Below, piece after piece: positions 1 through 5,675 of a DNA stretch of 13,080 bases. This stretch comes from a virus (lineage: Duplodnaviria > Heunggongvirae > Uroviricota > Caudoviricetes). The first letter of the stretch is position 1. Each line of letters opens with the position of its first letter. Under the pieces are notes generated by a model. That model was not told the origin of the DNA, did not search any database, and saw nothing but the letters and a program-made list of their open reading frames with translations. The position numbers were made by a program, and so were the translations under genes. Where the stretch lies: the IMG/VR virus record IMGVR_UViG_2563366976_000005; one strand, 5' to 3'.

Positions 1-1284
1 TTACTTCTTCGCCTCTGCAACCACTTTACTACCCACGCCGCGGTTATTGTATTCCCACATGCGGTTGTAGTTAGTGTCATTCAGATTGCGCTGTATTTCG
101 TCGTTATCATCTACGCTGCCGGTATTACCCGCAAACGGACGATTAGAGATCACCGCATCGGCCCACGGTTTAGCCGTGTTAAAACCTTCGTTGATGGCGC
201 TATCACGGATCACCACCTGACCGTTGGTATTGGCATCAACATCCAGCGAGCGGCCCAGTTGCGCCACACCATCACCGAAAGCATTGAAACGGCTGTTTAC
301 GGCGAGGAAACCGTAGTAAATGTTGGACAGCGTAGCCGGTGCAAACACATACGCTTCTTGCTGAGTACGTGAGTTCACCACGCGGAATTCGGTGTTATCG
401 AACACCACTGCGCCGCGACCAGAAACGATATCCACATCCCCTTCAATGTAGCTGTTGGTCACCAGCGTACGCGGCTGACGATTCGTTTCCAGACGGTTCT
501 GCACACCGCTGTTGGTGACAAAGAAGGTGTTCTGACGACCGAGAATGTTAACGTTGTTAATCTGTACCTGGTCACCATCAGTACGCAGTGCCACCGCCGG
601 ATGGTTACCTGCATCTACGCTATCGCCCAGCGTGTTTTCGATGGTCAGATTTTGCAGTTGCAGGCCATTGTTTTGTGACCAGAAGACCGCAGAGCAGAGA
701 ACACCGATACTGTCGCTGCGTTTGCTCTGGCAGCTATCGTACATATACCACGCTGGTTTACCTGGCATATATTTGCCGCGCGGGTTGACGTCGTGACGCC
801 AGTCGGCAGGGCTCATGCCACCATCAAGGGAAAGCCCAATCTTCACATCAATCGGTTTTTCACCTGTACCGTACAGAGTAATTCCACCCGGAGCGGCAGG
901 GACATATACCGTTCCCTGATACTCACCAGGCATCACGGCAATATACTGGCGCTTGTTGGTACGCTTGATAATTGCCGCATCTACCGCCGCCTGAATCGTG
1001 GTATGCGTTACACCTTGAGTGCCCGCCGGGCCGACAACAAAGTCAGGTTGCGCAGGCAGGGTAATCGGGGAAGGATTCCACGCTGCAGCACCTGGTGTCA
1101 GGGATGCAAAATAGTGTTGAGCATCGAAATTCTGCGCTTCTTTTGCCGACAGAATCGGGCGAGAAGAGGTACCAGGCGCGGTTTGATCAGAAGGACGTTG
1201 ATCGGGCGGGGTTGAGCTACAGGCGGTCAGCGTCACGCCAAAAGCCAATGCCAGCGCCAGACGGGAAACTGAAAATGTGTTCAC
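1..1284 (-). CDS. ybhC: Host outer-membrane lipoprotein YbhC (pectinesterase-like / acyl-CoA thioesterase family), complete, GTG start
   Basis: 427-aa ORF with signal peptide and lipobox (LTAC); the sequence matches E. coli YbhC as I remember it; it lies immediately outside the phage att core, as at the chromosomal lambda attB locus. GTG start read at 1284-1282. Confidence 0.85.
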   Translation of the reverse strand: MNTFSVSRLALALAFGVTLTACSSTPPDQRPSDQTAPGTSSRPILSAKEAQNFDAQHYFASLTPGAAAWNPSPITLPAQPDFVVGPAGTQGVTHTTIQAAVDAAIIKRTNKRQYIAVMPGEYQGTVYVPAAPGGITLYGTGEKPIDVKIGLSLDGGMSPADWRHDVNPRGKYMPGKPAWYMYDSCQSKRSDSIGVLCSAVFWSQNNGLQLQNLTIENTLGDSVDAGNHPAVALRTDGDQVQINNVNILGRQNTFFVTNSGVQNRLETNRQPRTLVTNSYIEGDVDIVSGRGAVVFDNTEFRVVNSRTQQEAYVFAPATLSNIYYGFLAVNSRFNAFGDGVAQLGRSLDVDANTNGQVVIRDSAINEGFNTAKPWADAVISNRPFAGNTGSVDDNDEIQRNLNDTNYNRMWEYNNRGVGSKVVAEAKK

Positions 1285-1317
1285 AGGTTGCTCCGGGCTA
1301 TGAAATAGAAAAATGAA

Positions 1318-1417
1318 TCCGTTGAAGCCTGCTTTTTATACTAAGTTGGCATTATAAAAAAGCATTGCTTATCAATTTGTTGCAACGAACAGGTCACTAT
1401 CAGTCAAAATAAAATCA
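1318..1417. other. attL (B-O-P') junction of a lambda-type integration: host arm, core, phage P' arm with Int arm-type and IHF sites
   Basis: Core-like gctttttatactaa at 1331-1344, preceded by host-type ttgaagcctg and followed by the lambda P' arm (aagttggcattataaaaaagcattgcttatcaatttgttgcaacgaacaggtcactatcagtcaaaat). Arm-type motif gtcactat and IHF-like tatcaatttgttg are visible. The int stop lies directly downstream. Confidence 0.85.
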
Positions 1418-2488
1418 TTATTTGATTTCAATTTTGTCCCACTCCCTGCCTCTGTCATCACGATACTGTGATGCCATGGTGTCCGACTTATGCCCGAGAA
1501 GATGTTGAGCAAACTTATCGCTTATCTGCTTCTCATAGAGTCTTGCAGACAAACTGCGCAACTCGTGAAAGGTAGGCGGATCCCCTTCGAAGGAAAGACC
1601 TGATGCTTTTCGTGCGCGCATAAAATACCTTGATACTGTGCCGGATGAAAGCGGTTCGCGACGAGTAGATGCAATTATGGTTTCTCCGCCAAGAATCTCT
1701 TTGCATTTATCAAGTGTTTCCTTCATTGATATTCCGAGAGCATCAACATGCAATGCTGTTGGGATGGCAATTTTTACGCCTGTTTTGCTTTGCTCGACAT
1801 AAAGATATCCATCTACGATATCAGACCACTTCATTTCGCATAAATCACCAACTCGTTGCCCGGTAACAACAGCCAGTTCCATTGCAAGTCTGAGCCAACA
1901 TGGTGATGATTCTGCTGCTTGATAAATTTTCAGGTATTCGTCAGCCGTAAGTCTTGATCTCCTTACCTCTGATTTTGCTGCGCGAGTGGCAGCGACAGGG
2001 TTTGTTGTTATATGGCCTTCAGCTATTGCCTCTCGGAATGCATCGCTCAGTGTTGATCTGATTAACTTGGCTGACGCCGCCTTGCCCTCGTCTATGTATC
2101 CATTGAGCATTGCCGCAATTTCTTTTGTGGTGATGTCTTCAAGTGGAGCATCAGGCAGACCCCTCCTTATTGCTTTAATTTTGCTCATGTAATTTATGAG
2201 TGTCTTCTGCTTGATTCCTCTGCTGGCCAGGATTTTTTCGTAGCGATCAAGCCATGAATGTAACGTAACGGAATTATCACTGTTGATTCTCGCTGTCAGA
2301 GGCTTGTGTTTGTGTCCTGAAAATAACTCAATGTTGGCCTGTATAGCTTCAGTGATTGCGATTCGCCTGTCTCGGCCTAATCCAAACTCTTTACCCGTCC
2401 TTGGGTCCCTGTAGCAGTAATATCCATTGTTTCTTATATAAAGGTTAGGGGGTAAATCCCGGCGCTCATGACTTCGCCTTCTTCCCAT
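1418..2488 (-). CDS. int: Tyrosine integrase, lambda Int type (356 aa)
   Basis: 356-aa ORF beginning MGRRRSHERRDLPPNLYIRNNGYYCYRDPRTGKEF, matching lambda Int in sequence and length as I remember it; its 3' end lies in the P' arm of att; it overlaps xis as in lambda. Confidence 0.96.
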   Translation of the reverse strand: MGRRRSHERRDLPPNLYIRNNGYYCYRDPRTGKEFGLGRDRRIAITEAIQANIELFSGHKHKPLTARINSDNSVTLHSWLDRYEKILASRGIKQKTLINYMSKIKAIRRGLPDAPLEDITTKEIAAMLNGYIDEGKAASAKLIRSTLSDAFREAIAEGHITTNPVAATRAAKSEVRRSRLTADEYLKIYQAAESSPCWLRLAMELAVVTGQRVGDLCEMKWSDIVDGYLYVEQSKTGVKIAIPTALHVDALGISMKETLDKCKEILGGETIIASTRREPLSSGTVSRYFMRARKASGLSFEGDPPTFHELRSLSARLYEKQISDKFAQHLLGHKSDTMASQYRDDRGREWDKIEIK

Positions 2489-2684
2489 TTCTGATCCTCT
2501 TCAAAAGGCTACCTGTTACTGGTCGATTTAAGTCAACCTTTACCGCTGATTCGTGGAACAGATATTCTCTTCCATCCTTAACCGGAGGAGGGAATATCCT
2601 GCATTCGCGCACCCATCGACGAACTGTTTCAAGGCTTCTTGGGCGTCGCTGGCGAGCGTTCCACTCCTGAAGTGTCAAGTACAT
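2466..2684 (-). CDS. xis: Excisionase, lambda Xis type (72 aa)
   Basis: 72-aa ORF MYLTLQEWNARQRRPRSLETVRRWVRECRIFPPPVKDGREYLFHESAVKVDL..., overlapping the int start by 23 bp as in lambda. Confidence 0.94.
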   Translation of the reverse strand: MYLTLQEWNARQRRPRSLETVRRWVRECRIFPPPVKDGREYLFHESAVKVDLNRPVTGSLLKRIRNGKKAKS

Positions 2685-2708
2685 CGCAAAGTCTCCGCAA
2701 TTACACGC

Positions 2709-2731
2709 AAGAAAAAACCGCCATCAGGCGG
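2709..2731 (-). terminator. Candidate intrinsic terminator for leftward transcription, just upstream of xis
   Basis: Stem ccgcc(2718-2722)/ggcgg(2727-2731) with a 4-nt loop; on the - strand the hairpin is followed by UUUUUUC (complement of gaaaaaa, 2711-2717). Confidence 0.4.
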
Positions 2732-2900
2732 CTTGGTGTTCTTTCAGTTCTTCAATTCGAATATTGGTTACGTCTGCATGTGCTATCTGCGCCCACAGCA
2801 TCCAGTGGTTATAGCAGTCGCTGATGTTCTCGGCTTCGATAACTCTGTTGAATGGTTCTCCATTCCATTCACCTGTAACTCGGAAGTGCATTTATCATCG

Positions 2901-2960
2901 CCATAAAACAAAACTCGCCGTAGCGAGTTCAGATAAAAGAAAACCCGCACTCGGCGGGTT
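2901..2960 (-). terminator. Tandem pair of candidate intrinsic terminators for leftward transcription
   Basis: Hairpin A: aacccgc(2942-2948)/gcgggtt(2954-2960), followed on the - strand by UUUCUUUUAUCU. Hairpin B: aactcgc(2912-2918)/gcgagtt(2923-2929), followed on the - strand by UUGUUUUAUGG. Both are 7-bp perfect stems. Confidence 0.5.
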
Positions 2961-3239
2961 CGCATTCGTTCAAATTGCGTTTACTTCTTGGCGTTCTGTT
3001 CATCCATATCGATATACCATGGGTTGCTTCCCTTGGGCATGTTTAACGACTGCTCGCGATAGTATCTGATGCGCTCCATGAAATACTCGCGTGAGTGCTC
3101 AGGTTGCTCTCATGATACCTGCTCAGTGATAACAGGTATGTTAAGGCGCTCTCTGTACTCCATGCCTGATGCTGCAAGGTCAACGTTTACCTTGTTCTGT
3201 TTTTCTTTCGATTTCTCGGCGATGTTATGCCTGACATTG

Positions 3240-3524
3240 TCAACCCGCCTCCTTCTGAACATAACGGTTATAAATCAGTCCCTGAGGGCCATAAGGAAGC
3301 GGGATGTGCAACTCCTCTGGTTCAGAAACTATCCATTCCCCGGCCATCTCCGCTGGAGAGGTAATGATAAGTTGTTTGCTAATAAAAGGACCACTCCTCT
3401 CAACAACAAGCTTACCATCTTCATTAATAAAAGCTTGGATGTCAGGTGTGCTTCCACACTTGGTGATGCAGCGTTTGAACATTTTGTGTCCCCCCATTTT
3501 ATGGACGGGGTAATTATAACACAT
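3240..3524 (-). CDS. Small protein in the ea8.5 position (Ea8.5-like by synteny); start uncertain (ATG at 3524, or ATG at 3482 behind a GGGGGGA Shine-Dalgarno giving 80 aa)
   Basis: 94-aa ORF between xis and the accessory block, similar in size to lambda Ea8.5 (93 aa from memory). Called by position and length only; I cannot confirm sequence identity. Confidence 0.5.
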   Translation of the reverse strand: MCYNYPVHKMGGHKMFKRCITKCGSTPDIQAFINEDGKLVVERSGPFISKQLIITSPAEMAGEWIVSEPEELHIPLPYGPQGLIYNRYVQKEAG

Positions 3525-3608
3525 TGAAATATAGTAATATTTGACGTAGATTTCTTTTGATCTATAAGCGATTTTTTAATGCTTTTAAGTTATAAATACT
3601 TGTTTTCA

Positions 3609-4184
3609 TCACCCATCTTGCTGCGGTGCTACTATTGAAAAGTACTCACACCCTTTAGCCCAAATAGTTTTGATAGTTGTCCAACTGACTGGAACCTTGA
3701 TTTCGATTCTTCCGCTGCCGTCACAAGTTTCGCAATCATCATCACCAAAGCATTCCGGGCAGCTTATAAACGTAGTTTCTGAAAATTCACCGGATAGCAC
3801 ACCCTTAGCGCCGTTCTCAGCGGTTAGTTTCTTCGGCACTATAACCCAACCATCCGGAGTTACCGGAGAATTGCCATTTATATCGAAGTTTGGCTCTGCG
3901 TCCTGAACCAGGAGGATGTAACCATTCTTGGCAGTATCAAGTTCTAACGCCTCGGTGACGGTACCGAAATAGCGATTACCTAAATCCGCATCACAAGTGC
4001 TTACATCAATGGAAACCTCCATGCCTTCGATTAATTCTGGCAAGTTGTAAGTTTGGCTTACAGGTTCTGCTCCCAGTGATGCCAGTGCAATTCGTGCCAG
4101 TTCCATTTGTTCGCCACGAGTAAGCCCGTTTTCAAGCGGATTTTTAATGAACAATTCAATACGTTCTTTGGTAATAGTGGTCAT
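3609..4184 (-). CDS. Hypothetical acidic protein with a C-terminal CxxC-x5-CxxC zinc-ribbon-like cluster (191 aa)
   Basis: ATG at 4184-4182 behind AAGGA; starts 10 bp after the stop of the TGT/DpdA-like gene; rich in Asp/Glu; CPECFGDDDCETCDGSGR resembles a CxxCxGxG zinc-finger unit. No family recognised. Confidence 0.75.
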   Translation of the reverse strand: MTTITKERIELFIKNPLENGLTRGEQMELARIALASLGAEPVSQTYNLPELIEGMEVSIDVSTCDADLGNRYFGTVTEALELDTAKNGYILLVQDAEPNFDINGNSPVTPDGWVIVPKKLTAENGAKGVLSGEFSETTFISCPECFGDDDCETCDGSGRIEIKVPVSWTTIKTIWAKGCEYFSIVAPQQDG

Positions 4185-4194
4185 TTGTTAGTCC

Positions 4195-4950
4195 TTAAAC
4201 TGCTAGTTGCAATTGCATTTCAAAGCGGTCGCGTTGTTCACAATACGCAAGAGAACCAGGGCTATTGTGTGCCTCAATCCGTTCTACCATTAATGCTGCG
4301 CGTGTCTCTTTACTTGCAGGTGCATAAGCCCCAGACCAGGCTTTATCAATACCGATGTTTCGAGCGACGTTCGTACTATCTGCGCTGGCTAAGGGTAATT
4401 TTGTGAATATCAGCGGATTTAACATGCGCAATCCATGTAGTTTCGTAACCGGCTGACCATGCCCATCAACAATGTGACGAATCAGGTCTTTCATTCTGGC
4501 TACCGCAAGAGTTGGGCGCTTTACGTCATAGTCGCCACAACTACCGATAGCCACTCGCGGAAACTCATTGCACAAATGAATAAATCGCTCGTCACTTTCA
4601 TTCATGTGCCACACTGGAACGCCAGCTAGTTTTCCGTGAGGCCACTCATTCAGAAGCGCATCATTTTCCTCCTCTCCGCCATCAATAACATCCGGGATAA
4701 TGGCAAAATCGAATCCTGGGTGATTCTTCCAGCGAGCAACAAACTCGTAGTAATCGCTCCAGTCGATTTTGTTTTTGCCAGCTGCTTTCCAGGCGGTGAA
4801 TGCACCGTTGTCCAGCGCGAACGACTGACAGTATTCAGCCGCGAGATTGATCTGGCCTGAATGCGCAAAACTGATAAACGCATGTCGCCCTTTCCATGCT
4901 CTCATTGCGCACGTATCAGGAGTAATAGGCCCACCGTGGTAGTGAATCAT
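4195..4950 (-). CDS. tRNA-guanine transglycosylase (TGT)-superfamily protein lacking the C-terminal zinc subdomain; DpdA-like candidate 7-deazaguanine DNA transglycosylase (251 aa)
   Basis: Start chosen at ATG 4950-4948 (AAGGAG Shine-Dalgarno, 1 nt after the upstream stop) rather than the ORF-track start at 4992. Motifs line up with bacterial Tgt as I remember it: FALDNGAF vs TDSGGFQ, DFAIIPDVIDG vs DIVMIFDEC, KLHGLR...ASADSTNVARNIG vs YLMGVG...DMFDCVMPTRNARNG, with all three catalytic Asp positions retained. No CxCxxC...H zinc site. Confidence 0.7.
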   Translation of the reverse strand: MIHYHGGPITPDTCAMRAWKGRHAFISFAHSGQINLAAEYCQSFALDNGAFTAWKAAGKNKIDWSDYYEFVARWKNHPGFDFAIIPDVIDGGEEENDALLNEWPHGKLAGVPVWHMNESDERFIHLCNEFPRVAIGSCGDYDVKRPTLAVARMKDLIRHIVDGHGQPVTKLHGLRMLNPLIFTKLPLASADSTNVARNIGIDKAWSGAYAPASKETRAALMVERIEAHNSPGSLAYCEQRDRFEMQLQLAV

Positions 4951-4951
4951 C

Positions 4952-5359
4952 TCACTCTCCTTTGATGCGAATGCCAGTAGCGCGGATTGCATCGATGACT
5001 TCAGAAACTTTGTATGCCATTACCGTTTGGTAATCATCGTGAAAATCTGTTCGATGAAGCATGCTGCTACGTTCCGGGAGCAGTATTTCCCGCGCTTCCA
5101 GTTCTGCAATGCGCTTTTTTGCTGCTTCCAGTTCATCCAGTAATTCCAGCACGGTAGCCGGATTAGCCTTGGCAACAAAATCCCGGACTGGCTTACAATC
5201 AATCTCCGCAATGGGTTGATACGATGTGTAGCCATGCTGTCTTGTATAACTACCGTGACGAATAACGAAAAAATCACCATTTATTTTTTTAGCCTGCCAC
5301 TTATCTTCACCGGCTTTCTCTGCCGCTTCACGCAGTGCCTGAGAGTTAATTTCGCTCAC
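4952..5359 (-). CDS. Ea22-like (Ead/Ea22 family) protein, 135 aa, GTG start
   Basis: N-terminus MSEINSQALREAAEKA and C-terminus ...GIRIKGE resemble the conserved ends of Ead/Ea22-family proteins as I recall them. GTG start (5359-5357) overlaps the upstream TGA in a GTGA arrangement. Family assignment is from memory. Confidence 0.55.
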   Translation of the reverse strand: MSEINSQALREAAEKAGEDKWQAKKINGDFFVIRHGSYTRQHGYTSYQPIAEIDCKPVRDFVAKANPATVLELLDELEAAKKRIAELEAREILLPERSSMLHRTDFHDDYQTVMAYKVSEVIDAIRATGIRIKGE

Positions 5360-5577
5360 GTCGAACCTCTCTGTTTACTGATAAGCTCCAGATCTTGCTG
5401 GCAACTGGCACAAGTCCGACAACCCTGAACGGCCAGTCGTCTTCGTTCATCTATCGGATCGCCACACTCACAACAATGAGTGGCAGATATAGCCTGGTGG
5501 TTCAGGCGGCGCATTTTTATTGCTGTGTTGCGCTGTAATTCTTCAATTTCTGATGCTGAATCAATTATGTCTGCCAT
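5356..5577 (-). CDS. TraR/DksA-family C4 zinc-finger protein (73 aa)
   Basis: 73 aa with CCECGDPIDERRRLAVQGCRTCASCQ: two CxxC pairs spaced as in F-plasmid TraR / DksA C-terminal zinc fingers; the length equals TraR. Confidence 0.8.
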   Translation of the reverse strand: MADIIDSASEIEELQRNTAIKMRRLNHQAISATHCCECGDPIDERRRLAVQGCRTCASCQQDLELISKQRGST

Positions 5578-5624: not shown

Positions 5625-5653
5625 CGAATAATAAAAAAGGAGCCTGTAGCTCC
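5625..5653 (-). terminator. Candidate intrinsic terminator (leftward) between the 93-aa ORF and the TraR-like gene
   Basis: Stem ggagc(5639-5643)/gctcc(5649-5653), loop ctgta; on the - strand followed by UUUUUUAUUAUU. Confidence 0.35.
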
Positions 5654-5675
5654 CTGATGATTTTGCTTTTCATGT

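What the first reader, a model, noticed from the sequence alone, without database searches (positions are those of the whole stretch)
4195..4950. TGT-fold, DpdA-like transglycosylase in the exo-xis accessory region of a lambdoid prophage
The 251-aa protein lines up motif by motif with the catalytic core of tRNA-guanine transglycosylase (LDNGAF, IIPDVID, LHGL...ADSTNVARN) and keeps the three catalytic aspartate positions, but lacks the C-terminal CxCxxC...H zinc subdomain. That combination is the hallmark of DpdA-type enzymes, which insert 7-deazaguanine derivatives into DNA. No preQ0-synthesis genes are nearby, so the enzyme would have to use the host queuosine-pathway intermediate (queC/D/E, folE). 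The prophage may therefore modify its own DNA as an anti-restriction strategy. A DNA-modification gene in this position, tightly coupled to Ea22-like and TraR-like genes, is not part of the canonical lambda map.
Basis: partly seen in the sequence, partly recalled or inferred. Interest (0 to 1): 0.85.

Follow-up and report, generated by a model that had tools for sequence, protein, structure and literature searches.

The report
Prophage DpdA-type DNA guanine transglycosylase
This E. coli lambda-like prophage carries a small enzyme of the phage DpdA family, which swaps guanines in DNA for 7-deazaguanine bases, but this "stand-alone DpdA" group of temperate phages was catalogued in 2019, so the gene is an ordinary member whose real activity is still untested.

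Summary
The ORF is real: 4195-4950, minus strand, 251 aa, with a good Shine-Dalgarno site. It is packed tightly behind TraR-like and Ea22-like genes, between exo and xis, in a lambdoid prophage at attB-lambda (ybhC/ybhB).

It belongs to the phage DpdA family:
- PHROG 887 matches at E = 2e-103.
- BLASTP to the Iggy-type DpdA gives E = 2e-12.
- hhalign to experimentally validated DpdA1 enzymes gives 98% probability.
- Asp47, Asp87 and Asp191, plus His115 and His172, are near-invariant across about 100 diverse relatives.
- More distant relatives lie next to queC-queE-queD-folE2, or are fused to QueD or to a Dam methylase.

No preQ0 synthesis genes occur in the whole prophage.

None of this is new. 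The 93%-identical SPN3UB gp54, and HK106 gp29 in the same exo-xis position, are listed as "DpdA-only" phages in Hutinet et al. 2019, which also proposed use of host preQ0. The only DpdA-only phages tested carried trace modification (7-11) or none (Orion), so an anti-restriction role remains unproven.

Interest is low to moderate.

The parts
4195..4950 (-). CDS, 251 aa. Short-form phage DpdA-family guanine transglycosylase (a 'DpdA-only'/singleton type); WP_000582234.1.
4810..4812 (-). Codon for Asp47 (LDNGAF). Predicted general acid/base, equivalent to Asp95 of bacterial DpdA and Asp102 of Z. mobilis TGT.
   Evidence: Invariant with validated DpdA1 and present in 102/105 sequences (query plus 104 diverse relatives). 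Role inferred from PMC10164549. The Asp-x-Gly-x-Phe/Tyr spacing is as in bDpdA D95...F99.
4690..4692 (-). Codon for Asp87 (IIPDVID). Predicted base-recognition aspartate.
   Evidence: Present in 103/105 sequences (query plus 104 relatives). Aligned to the DpdA1 Asp by MAFFT and hhalign. BLASTP shifts this stretch by one residue relative to Asp90, so the assignment is by conservation: D87 is near-invariant and D90 is not.
4378..4380 (-). Codon for Asp191 (SADSTN). Predicted catalytic nucleophile, equivalent to Asp256 of bDpdA and Asp280 of TGT.
   Evidence: Invariant with Ser192 in the 89-sequence alignment that includes DpdA1; present in 94/105. Lies at the end of predicted strand 189-192.
4435..4437 (-). 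Codon for His172 (KLHGL). Matches the conserved His of phage DpdA1 (His196 of 9g), which is absent from DpdA2.
   Evidence: Aligned His-Gly; present in 95/105. Literature statement on His196.
4606..4608 (-). Codon for His115 (PVWHxxE). Second conserved His, shared with DpdA1.
   Evidence: Invariant in A2; present in 102/105.
4957..4961 (-). Shine-Dalgarno AGGAG, 6 nt upstream of the ATG at 4950.
   Evidence: Read directly from the sequence.
4952..5359 (-). Upstream Ea22/Ead-like gene (135 aa). Its stop is 1 nt from the DpdA start.
   Evidence: PF13935 at E = 2.6e-17; RefSeq annotation.
5356..5577 (-). TraR/DksA-type zinc-finger gene (73 aa). First gene of the tightly packed block; its stop overlaps the Ea22-like start (GTGA).
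   Evidence: PF01258 at E = 5e-9; TIGR02419 at E = 6e-15; PHROG 54; coordinates.
3609..4184 (-). Downstream 191-aa ORF with a CxxC...CxxCxGxG-like zinc finger. It starts 10 nt after the DpdA stop. Function unknown, and no evidence that it partners with DpdA.
   Evidence: PHROG 60 at E = 1.4e-41. PGAP names part of it 'molecular chaperone DnaJ'. Junction sequence.
5637..5655 (-). Terminator-like hairpin just upstream of the TraR-Ea22-DpdA-191aa block. No sigma-70-like promoter lies between it and the block, so the block should be read by antiterminated pL transcription.
   Evidence: Consensus scan only. That transcription comes from pL is inferred from lambda biology.

Best explanation
The gene encodes a minimal (beta/alpha)8-barrel guanine transglycosylase of the phage DpdA family. 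It belongs to the 'DpdA-only' clade of temperate gamma-proteobacterial phages.

It lies in the leftward early operon, between exo/bet/gam and xis/int. It should therefore be made after induction or infection, not in the repressed lysogen (inferred).

By analogy with TGT, bacterial DpdA and phage DpdA1 (inferred):
- The enzyme binds duplex DNA and flips out a guanine.
- Asp191 attacks C1' and displaces the guanine, with Asp47 acting as general acid.
- Asp47 then acts as general base to install a free 7-deazaguanine base.

The prophage has no folE, queD, queE or queC, so the base, most likely preQ0, must come from the E. coli queuosine pathway. With only the host pool available, modification is expected to be sparse: about 0.01-1% of G, as seen when 9g DpdA, nt-1 DpdA2 or VH7D DpdA2 are expressed alone in E. 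coli. Any protective effect would then need a narrow target motif.

Shown here: family membership, fold, conservation of the active site, absence of precursor genes, and linkage of relatives to preQ0 genes. Inferred: substrate, DNA as the target, timing of expression, and biological benefit.
For: Family membership:
- PHROG 887 'queuine tRNA-ribosyltransferase' matches at E = 2.3e-103.
- The protein is 93% identical to SPN3UB gp54. That protein is listed as a singleton DpdA in Hutinet 2019, Supplementary Data 1, together with HK106, SfI, SEN1, SE131 and BTP1.
- BLASTP to Knedl DpdA gives E = 2e-12. Knedl DpdA is 99.4% identical to validated Iggy DpdA, 67.6% to 9g DpdA and 72% to Seurat DpdA.
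- hhalign of the family against validated DpdA1 gives probability 98% and E = 2.5e-13 over residues 41-195.

Fold:
- The AF2 model has pLDDT 87 and pTM 0.86, with eight strands.
- In BFVD, 27 hits reach E <= 1e-3, and nearly all named ones are phage 'queuine tRNA-ribosyltransferase'.

Active site:
- D47, D87, H115, G136, H172, D191 and S192 are near-invariant in the query plus 104 representatives at 32-55% identity.
- The same residues are conserved with DpdA1.

Linkage to preQ0 and to DNA modification:
- Relative P0175 is followed by QueC, QueE, QueD and FolE2, all above NCBIfam cut-offs.
- Relative P0131 (45% identity) is followed by QueC and QueE in three contigs.
- P0260 is a QueD-DpdA fusion and P0239 is a Dam-DpdA fusion.

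Host supply:
- DpdA1 or DpdA2 expressed alone in E. coli insert host-made preQ0 or preQ1 into plasmid DNA, at 84-3666 per 10^6 nt.
Against: - No member of this short-form clade has been assayed.
- The only gamma-proteobacterial DpdA-only phage analysed (7-11, about 36% identity) had 50 dADG per 10^6 nt and no dPreQ0. Orion had nothing.
- The protein lacks the roughly 70-aa C-terminal helical extension of DpdA1 and the Zn-bearing Ins8 of bDpdA. Its DNA-binding surface is therefore unknown.
- No Pfam, NCBIfam, PADLOC or PDB sequence hit was found.
- The residue after the catalytic Asp is Asn, not the Ser of TGT, DpdA1 and Cap10.
- Bacterial DpdA needs the DpdB ATPase for activity, and no such partner is present here.
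Confidence: 0.6

Rival explanations
1. The enzyme is catalytically competent but biologically near-silent. In a phage without its own preQ0 pathway it makes only trace, non-protective modification. It would persist as a mobile accessory gene, a stripped remnant of a full dpdA-que module.
For: Phage 7-11 (DpdA only) has 0.02% of G modified and Orion has none. Relatives with full que clusters exist, so loss of the pathway is a plausible history. The gene sits in the mosaic exo-xis and nin regions, in different positions in different phages.
Against: Active-site residues are near-invariant across 1,533 clusters at 50% identity. The gene is intact and at least 99% identical in about 190 of the 204 E. 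coli genomes that carry it. That pattern argues for selection on activity.
Confidence: 0.17
2. It acts on RNA like a true TGT. It would exchange a base in host or phage tRNA to retune translation during lytic growth.
For: Database names call it 'queuine tRNA-ribosyltransferase'. bTGT and arcTGT are among the best fold matches.
Against: The names are inherited, not tested. It lacks the zinc and dimerisation subdomain and the tRNA-binding insertions of TGTs. Its sequence-detectable relatives are the DNA-modifying DpdA1 enzymes. One relative is fused to a DNA adenine methyltransferase.
Confidence: 0.06
3. It is a Cap10-like enzyme that handles a 7-deazaguanine attached to a protein or another acceptor, rather than inserting it into DNA.
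Confidence: 0.04
4. It works as a glycosylase only. It would excise guanine or a modified base from DNA without re-insertion, for example to damage host DNA or to erase a host or competitor mark.
For: The first half-reaction of TGT and DpdA is base excision through a covalent Asp intermediate. No precursor genes are present.
Against: Relatives are linked or fused to preQ0 synthesis genes, which only makes sense if a 7-deazaguanine is inserted. A trapped covalent intermediate would be toxic.
Confidence: 0.04

Closest known systems
'DpdA-only' (singleton) DpdA of temperate gamma-proteobacterial phages: Salmonella phage SPN3UB gp54 (YP_007011024) and phage HK106 gp29 (YP_007151699); group 3 of Hutinet et al. 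2019, Nat Commun 10:5442
   Same: 93% identical to SPN3UB gp54 and 36% to HK106 gp29. Both are listed as DpdA in phages with no preQ0 genes. HK106 gp29 sits in the same place, between the recombination genes and xis-int. The published hypothesis, use of host preQ0, is the same.
   Different: Essentially nothing. This is a chromosomal prophage copy in E. coli, present in 204 of 5,426 complete genomes and 99.2% identical in an Stx1a phage. In SPN3UB the gene is in the nin region rather than exo-xis.
Phage DpdA1 of Queuovirinae and relatives (9g, CAjan/Seurat, Iggy, Rosebush): experimentally shown to insert preQ0 into DNA
   Same: Detectable homology (BLASTP E = 2e-12; hhalign 98%). Shared Asp47/Asp87/Asp191 and His115/His172 equivalents. 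No zinc motif.
   Different: Only 18-22% identity. Shorter by about 60 aa or more (251 aa against 306-385). It lacks the N-terminal roughly 40 aa and the C-terminal helical extension. It has Asp-Asn instead of Asp-Ser at the catalytic Asp. DpdA1 genes sit inside folE-queD-queE-queC clusters, and this one does not.
Bacterial DpdA of the Dpd restriction-modification system (Salmonella Montevideo; PDB 7UI4; Pfam PF23859)
   Different: No PF23859 or PADLOC hit. bDpdA is 413 aa, has four insertions including a 128-residue Zn-binding Ins8, and needs DpdB and ATP. No dpdB-K genes are present here.
tRNA-guanine transglycosylase (Tgt; Pfam PF01702)
   Different: No statistical sequence similarity here. 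No CxCxxC...H zinc subdomain. About 125 aa shorter.
Cap10 of type IV CBASS (PDB 9NTN)
   Different: 10-11% identity. No Cap9, CD-NTase or effector neighbours. Cap10 binds a nucleobase-protein conjugate, not DNA.

Membership tests
Phage DpdA family (DpdA1-related, including the 'DpdA-only' clade) | Significant sequence homology to experimentally validated phage DpdA | tested here: met
   BLASTP to Knedl DpdA (99.4% identical to Iggy DpdA) gives E = 2e-12. hhalign against an alignment of Iggy-type, 9g, Seurat, Rosebush and MS1 gives probability 98% and E = 2.5e-13.
Phage DpdA family (DpdA1-related, including the 'DpdA-only' clade) | Conserved catalytic Asp pair, base-binding Asp and the DpdA1 histidine (His196 of 9g) | tested here: met
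   D47, D191 and S192 are invariant; D87, H115, G136 and H172 are at least 90% conserved in an 89-sequence alignment with DpdA1. In the query plus 104 relatives the counts are 102, 103, 102, 95 and 94 of 105 for D47, D87, H115, H172 and D191.
Phage DpdA family (DpdA1-related, including the 'DpdA-only' clade) | Genomic linkage to 7-deazaguanine (preQ0) synthesis genes | tested here: not met
   There are none in the window or in the whole prophage. This is the defining trait of the published 'DpdA-only' group 3, so it does not exclude the family. Relatives at 40-45% identity are linked or fused to QueC, QueE, QueD and FolE2.
Phage DpdA family (DpdA1-related, including the 'DpdA-only' clade) | 7-deazaguanine nucleosides in phage or plasmid DNA that depend on the gene | not testable with these tools
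   Needs LC-MS/MS. Published data for DpdA-only phages: 7-11 has 50 dADG per 10^6 nt and Orion has none.
'DpdA-only' gamma-proteobacterial phage group (Hutinet 2019, group 3) | Orthology to a listed member | tested here: met
   93.2% identity over 100% of the length to SPN3UB gp54, YP_007011024. That protein is listed in Supplementary Data 1 of PMC6884629.
tRNA-guanine transglycosylase superfamily (fold level) | (beta/alpha)8 barrel most similar to TGT-family structures | tested here: met
tRNA-guanine transglycosylase (Tgt proper, PF01702) | Match to the Pfam TGT model or to Tgt sequences | tested here: not met
   No Pfam hit at E <= 1. No PDB sequence or profile hits. hhalign to E. coli Tgt gives probability 1-2%. 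Validated DpdA1 enzymes also fail this test, so it excludes Tgt proper, not DpdA.
tRNA-guanine transglycosylase (Tgt proper, PF01702) | C-terminal CxCxxC...H zinc subdomain | tested here: not met
   The protein has no CxCxxC motif and ends 60 residues after the nucleophile Asp. E. coli Tgt has CDCYTC at residue 302.
tRNA-guanine transglycosylase superfamily (fold level) | Three Asp residues superimposable on Asp102/156/280 of Z. mobilis TGT | tested here: inconclusive
Bacterial DpdA / Dpd system | PF23859 or PADLOC DpdA match, DpdB partner and dpdC-K cluster, Zn-binding insertion | tested here: not met
Cap10 (type IV CBASS) | Operon with a Cap9 QueC-like enzyme, a CD-NTase with an N-terminal Gly-rich tail, and an effector | tested here: not met

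The most novel reading that the evidence does not exclude
The short-form, DpdA-only enzymes of lambdoid phages, including Stx-converting phages, may be highly site-specific. Fed only by the host queuosine pathway, they would place a sparse but complete 7-deazaguanine mark at a rare motif in phage DNA, and during induction in host DNA too. That would be an unrecognised epigenetic mark in the best-studied family of temperate phages. It could protect against one particular defence, for example by mimicking the self-mark of Dpd-type restriction systems, or it could expose the phage to 7-deazaguanine-sensing glycosylases such as Dag1.
Probability: 0.15. Interest if true: 0.6.

Novelty: already known. 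Interest (0 to 1): 0.27.

Why it matters
If active, the gene means that some lambdoid prophages of E. coli carry 7-deazaguanine in their DNA using nothing but the host's queuosine precursors. It is present in about 4% of complete E. coli genomes, including STEC strains, and in an Stx1a-converting phage. Such DNA could change the phages' sensitivity to restriction enzymes, Cas9-type nucleases, Dpd systems and the recently described 7-deazaguanine-specific defence glycosylases.

The practical points are modest:
- The function of 'DpdA-only' enzymes has been an open, easily testable question since 2019.
- Current annotation resources miss the family. Pfam, NCBIfam and PADLOC have no model that detects it, and PGAP calls it 'hypothetical protein'. 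PHROGs and phage records mislabel it as a tRNA enzyme.

The extra evidence gathered here ties the short-form clade to 7-deazaguanine DNA modification more firmly than the 2019 similarity network did. That evidence is relatives next to queC-queE-queD-folE2, and fusions to QueD and to Dam.

Tried and rejected
Searches that gave nothing:
- Pfam, NCBIfam and PADLOC scans of the protein gave no hit.
- A Pfam scan of 89 family members gave none to TGT. The single weak PF23859 hit (E = 0.0011) came from the Dp-1-like phage MS1.
- Validated DpdA1 enzymes also get no Pfam hit, so these negatives are uninformative rather than contrary.
- PDB sequence search with the protein, with a 70-sequence profile, with an 89-sequence profile, with a DpdA1 profile and with MS1 DpdA found no TGT, DpdA or Cap10 hit.
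- hhalign of the family profiles against the single E. coli Tgt sequence gave probability 1-2%. A deep TGT profile was not built, because it would have cost a full database search for a point already covered by fold and literature.
- An Rfam scan of the window found nothing.

Results too weak to use alone:
- The 'VUT family' (YhhQ-like preQ0 transporter) annotation of the gene next to the homologue in phage Opt-719 could not be confirmed with Pfam or NCBIfam. I dropped it as evidence.
- The QueD-like neighbour in Caulobacter phage DMCA is only marginal (22.5 bits against a cut-off of 22.4).
- Isoelectric point does not separate this protein from validated DpdAs.

Ideas considered and rejected:
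- The longer 265-aa start at 4992. It has no Shine-Dalgarno site and overlaps the Ea22-like gene.
- An independent 'moron' promoter for the gene. No sigma-70-like site lies upstream on the minus strand, and GC content is unremarkable.
- The idea that the Asp-Asn variant marks a different substrate. It is weakened because relatives adjacent to QueC and QueE also have Asp-Asn.
Full report
**What the window is.** The 13-kb window is the left arm and immunity/replication region of a lambdoid prophage. It is inserted at the lambda attachment site next to ybhC. It is identical to a locus in E. coli M15 and about 30 other complete genomes. Read leftward on the minus strand, the order is: cI-like repressor, a BamE-like lipoprotein gene, kil, gam, bet, exo, several small ORFs, a TraR/DksA-like gene, an Ea22-like gene, the ORF in question, a 191-aa zinc-finger ORF, more small ORFs, xis and int. 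The finding therefore does lie in the 'exo-xis' accessory region.

- The ORF 4195-4950 (-) encodes 251 aa, and RefSeq annotates exactly these coordinates as WP_000582234.1, 'hypothetical protein'.
- An AGGAG sits 6 nt upstream of the ATG.
- The four genes from 5577 down to 3609 are packed with a 4-nt overlap, a 1-nt gap and a 10-nt gap.
- The quoted motifs are at residues 46-51, 84-90, 171-174 and 190-198.
- There is no CxCxxC motif, whereas E. coli Tgt has CDCYTC at residue 302.
- No folE, queC, queD, queE or yhhQ gene occurs in the window or anywhere in the ybhC-to-ybhB prophage of strain M15.

**Standard models miss the protein, but they also miss proven DpdAs.** Pfam, NCBIfam, PADLOC and PDB sequence or profile searches return nothing for this protein. 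hhalign against E. coli Tgt is empty. The experimentally proven phage DpdA enzymes (9g, Iggy-type, Seurat) are equally invisible to Pfam, and none of 81 short-form relatives hits any TGT or DpdA model. PHROGs, which is built by remote-homology clustering, places the protein in PHROG 887, 'queuine tRNA-ribosyltransferase', at E = 2e-103.

**Homology to validated DpdA.** tblastn finds the gene in 108 phage genomes. These include an Stx1a-converting phage (99.2% identity), Salmonella phage SPN3UB (93%), HK106 (36%) and 7-11-like phages (about 36%). The weakest hit, Pseudomonas phage Knedl, is an Iggyvirus whose DpdA lies next to FolE, QueD, QueC and QueE. That DpdA is 99.4% identical to Iggy DpdA, 67.6% to 9g DpdA and 72% to Seurat DpdA. 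Direct BLASTP of the window protein against it gives E = 2e-12 over 178 residues. hhalign of a 70-sequence family alignment against five DpdA1 enzymes gives 98% probability and E = 2.5e-13 over residues 41-195.

**Shared residues.** In the joint alignments, Asp47, Asp191 and Ser192 are invariant. Asp87, His115, Gly136 and His172 are at least 90% conserved. His172 corresponds to the histidine (His196 of 9g) that distinguishes DpdA1 from DpdA2.

**Is the active site under selection?** An exhaustive profile search finds 1,533 clusters at 50% identity (581 at E <= 1e-10). Most of the best 150 are 215-270 aa long. In the query plus 104 near-full-length representatives at 32-55% identity, the counts out of 105 are: Asp47 102, Asn48 94, Phe/Tyr51 99, Asp87 103, His115 102, Glu118 99, Gly136 98, His172 95, Asp191 94 and Ser192 93. 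This is the pattern of an active enzyme, not a decayed one.

**Is the short form tied to 7-deazaguanine and to DNA?** Yes, through relatives.
- P0175 (E = 7e-53 to the family profile) is followed directly by QueC, QueE, QueD and FolE2, then an integrase. All four pass NCBIfam cut-offs.
- P0131 (45% identity) is followed by QueC and QueE on three independent marine contigs.
- P0260 is a QueD-DpdA-like fusion, 40% identical across the barrel.
- P0239 is a fusion of a Dam-type DNA adenine methyltransferase to the barrel, in a P2/186-like prophage. A TraR-like gene lies just upstream, as in the window.
- These relatives also carry Asp-Asn rather than the Asp-Ser of TGT and DpdA1. The Asn is therefore a clade feature compatible with a preQ0 pathway, not a mark of singletons.
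- Two other contexts had no que genes.

**Most likely mechanism.** By homology, the enzyme should exchange guanine in duplex DNA for a free 7-deazaguanine base through a covalent Asp191-deoxyribose intermediate, with Asp47 as acid/base. This was shown for bacterial DpdA by mutagenesis (PMC10164549). The base must come from the host. E. coli makes preQ0 and preQ1. Phage DpdA1 or DpdA2 expressed alone in E. coli insert host-derived preQ0 or preQ1 into plasmids at 84-3666 per 10^6 nt (PMC6884629 and PMC10516641). No promoter-like site precedes the gene block, and a terminator-like hairpin lies upstream of it. Expression is therefore probably from antiterminated pL transcription during lytic growth, which is an inference.

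**Comparison with what is known.** This is not new.
- Hutinet et al. 2019 catalogued 76 phages that 'encode DpdA but no G+ or preQ0 biosynthesis protein homologs'. They proposed reliance on host preQ0 or on uptake.
- They noted that singleton DpdAs of gamma-proteobacterial phages form their own cluster, which may have diverged functionally.
- Their Supplementary Data 1 lists SPN3UB YP_007011024 (93% identical to this protein), HK106 YP_007151699, SfI, SEN1, SE131 and BTP1.
- HK106 gp29 sits in the same exo-xis position. In SPN3UB the gene is in the nin region.
- Of the DpdA-only phages tested, 7-11 had 50 dADG per 10^6 nt (0.02% of G) and Orion had none.
- I found no later paper that tests a lambdoid singleton.

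Lack of the zinc subdomain is not a general DpdA hallmark. Bacterial DpdA conserves the structural Zn site within a large insertion, whereas phage DpdA has lost zinc ligands (no CxCxxC in any phage DpdA examined). The anti-restriction role is plausible but unsupported for this clade, and host-limited precursor supply predicts sparse modification. The interest score of 0.85 is too high.

**Verdict.** The ORF is a genuine, well-conserved member of the published 'DpdA-only' phage transglycosylase group. It is present in 204 of 5,426 complete E. coli genomes and is always annotated 'hypothetical protein'. The identification is secure (about 0.95). Insertion of a host-derived 7-deazaguanine into DNA is likely (about 0.6). 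A protective role is uncertain. What this analysis adds is the linkage of the short-form clade to que clusters and to QueD and Dam fusions, and the demonstration that Pfam, NCBIfam and PADLOC have no model for it.

Noticed in passing
L021:494-3931 (JGI marine contig); L022:531-2471, L023, L024: Short-form DpdA relatives (P0175, P0131) lie immediately upstream of QueC-QueE-QueD-FolE2 or QueC-QueE in temperate-phage-like contigs. The 'singleton' clade therefore has close cousins with full or partial preQ0 modules.
   Followed up: yes
L014:2840-3847 (P0260); L015:8001-9266 (P0239): There are two fusion proteins. One is QueD (PTPS) fused to the DpdA-like barrel. The other is a Dam-type N6-adenine DNA methyltransferase fused to a barrel that lacks its first 38 residues, in a P2/186-like prophage with a TraR-like gene just upstream. 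Either could be a real fusion or a deletion hybrid.
   Followed up: partly
window 8838-9218 (-), hairpin 8811-8830 (-): A BamE/SmpA-like lipoprotein gene (signal peptide with an LAGC lipobox) lies between kil and the cI-like repressor and is followed by a strong terminator-like hairpin. It looks like a lysogenic-conversion moron. PGAP annotates no N-like antiterminator gene in this prophage.
   Followed up: no
window ~2982-3263 (-): A DNA polymerase III theta (HolE/HOT-like) gene is annotated by PGAP as a pseudogene with an internal stop, between the exo-xis block and xis.
   Followed up: no
window 3609-4184 (-): This 191-aa ORF directly downstream of dpdA has a DnaJ-like CxxC...CxxCxGxG zinc finger (PHROG 60). 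PGAP splits it into a 'DnaJ' CDS and a pseudogene fragment, although the window ORF is intact. A protein with a weak DnaJ_CXXCXGXG hit also lies on the QueD-DpdA fusion contig (L014:16-729).
   Followed up: partly
window 4195-4950; E. coli genome collection: There is an annotation gap. No Pfam, NCBIfam or PADLOC model detects either this short-form family (0 of 81) or the validated DpdA1 enzymes of 9g, Iggy-type and Seurat. PGAP labels the gene 'hypothetical protein' in all listed records among the 204 E. coli genomes that carry it. Phage records call it a tRNA enzyme.
   Followed up: yes
phage record LC744180.1 (hit H1); E. coli hits: A 99.2%-identical copy is present in Stx1a-converting phage Stx1a_EH2115 and in several STEC, O111 and O157:H16 genomes. 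Five matches are on plasmids.
   Followed up: no
L008 (rest of the prophage in E. coli M15): In strain M15 the prophage carries several IS3-family insertions that interrupt the J/tail-tip gene and tail-fibre genes, so that copy is probably defective. Its nin region encodes YbcN, annotated as a 'DNA base-flipping protein'.
   Followed up: no
window 10542-11081 (+): A YdaT toxin-domain protein occupies the position downstream of the cro-like gene where lambda has cII.
   Followed up: no
L004:4522-4998 (phage Opt-719): The gene just upstream of the DpdA homologue is deposited as 'VUT family protein', the family of the YhhQ preQ0 transporter. Neither Pfam nor NCBIfam confirmed this. By contrast, the Dp-1-like phage MS1 has an annotated Vut_1 membrane protein directly upstream of its DpdA (L012).
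   Followed up: partly
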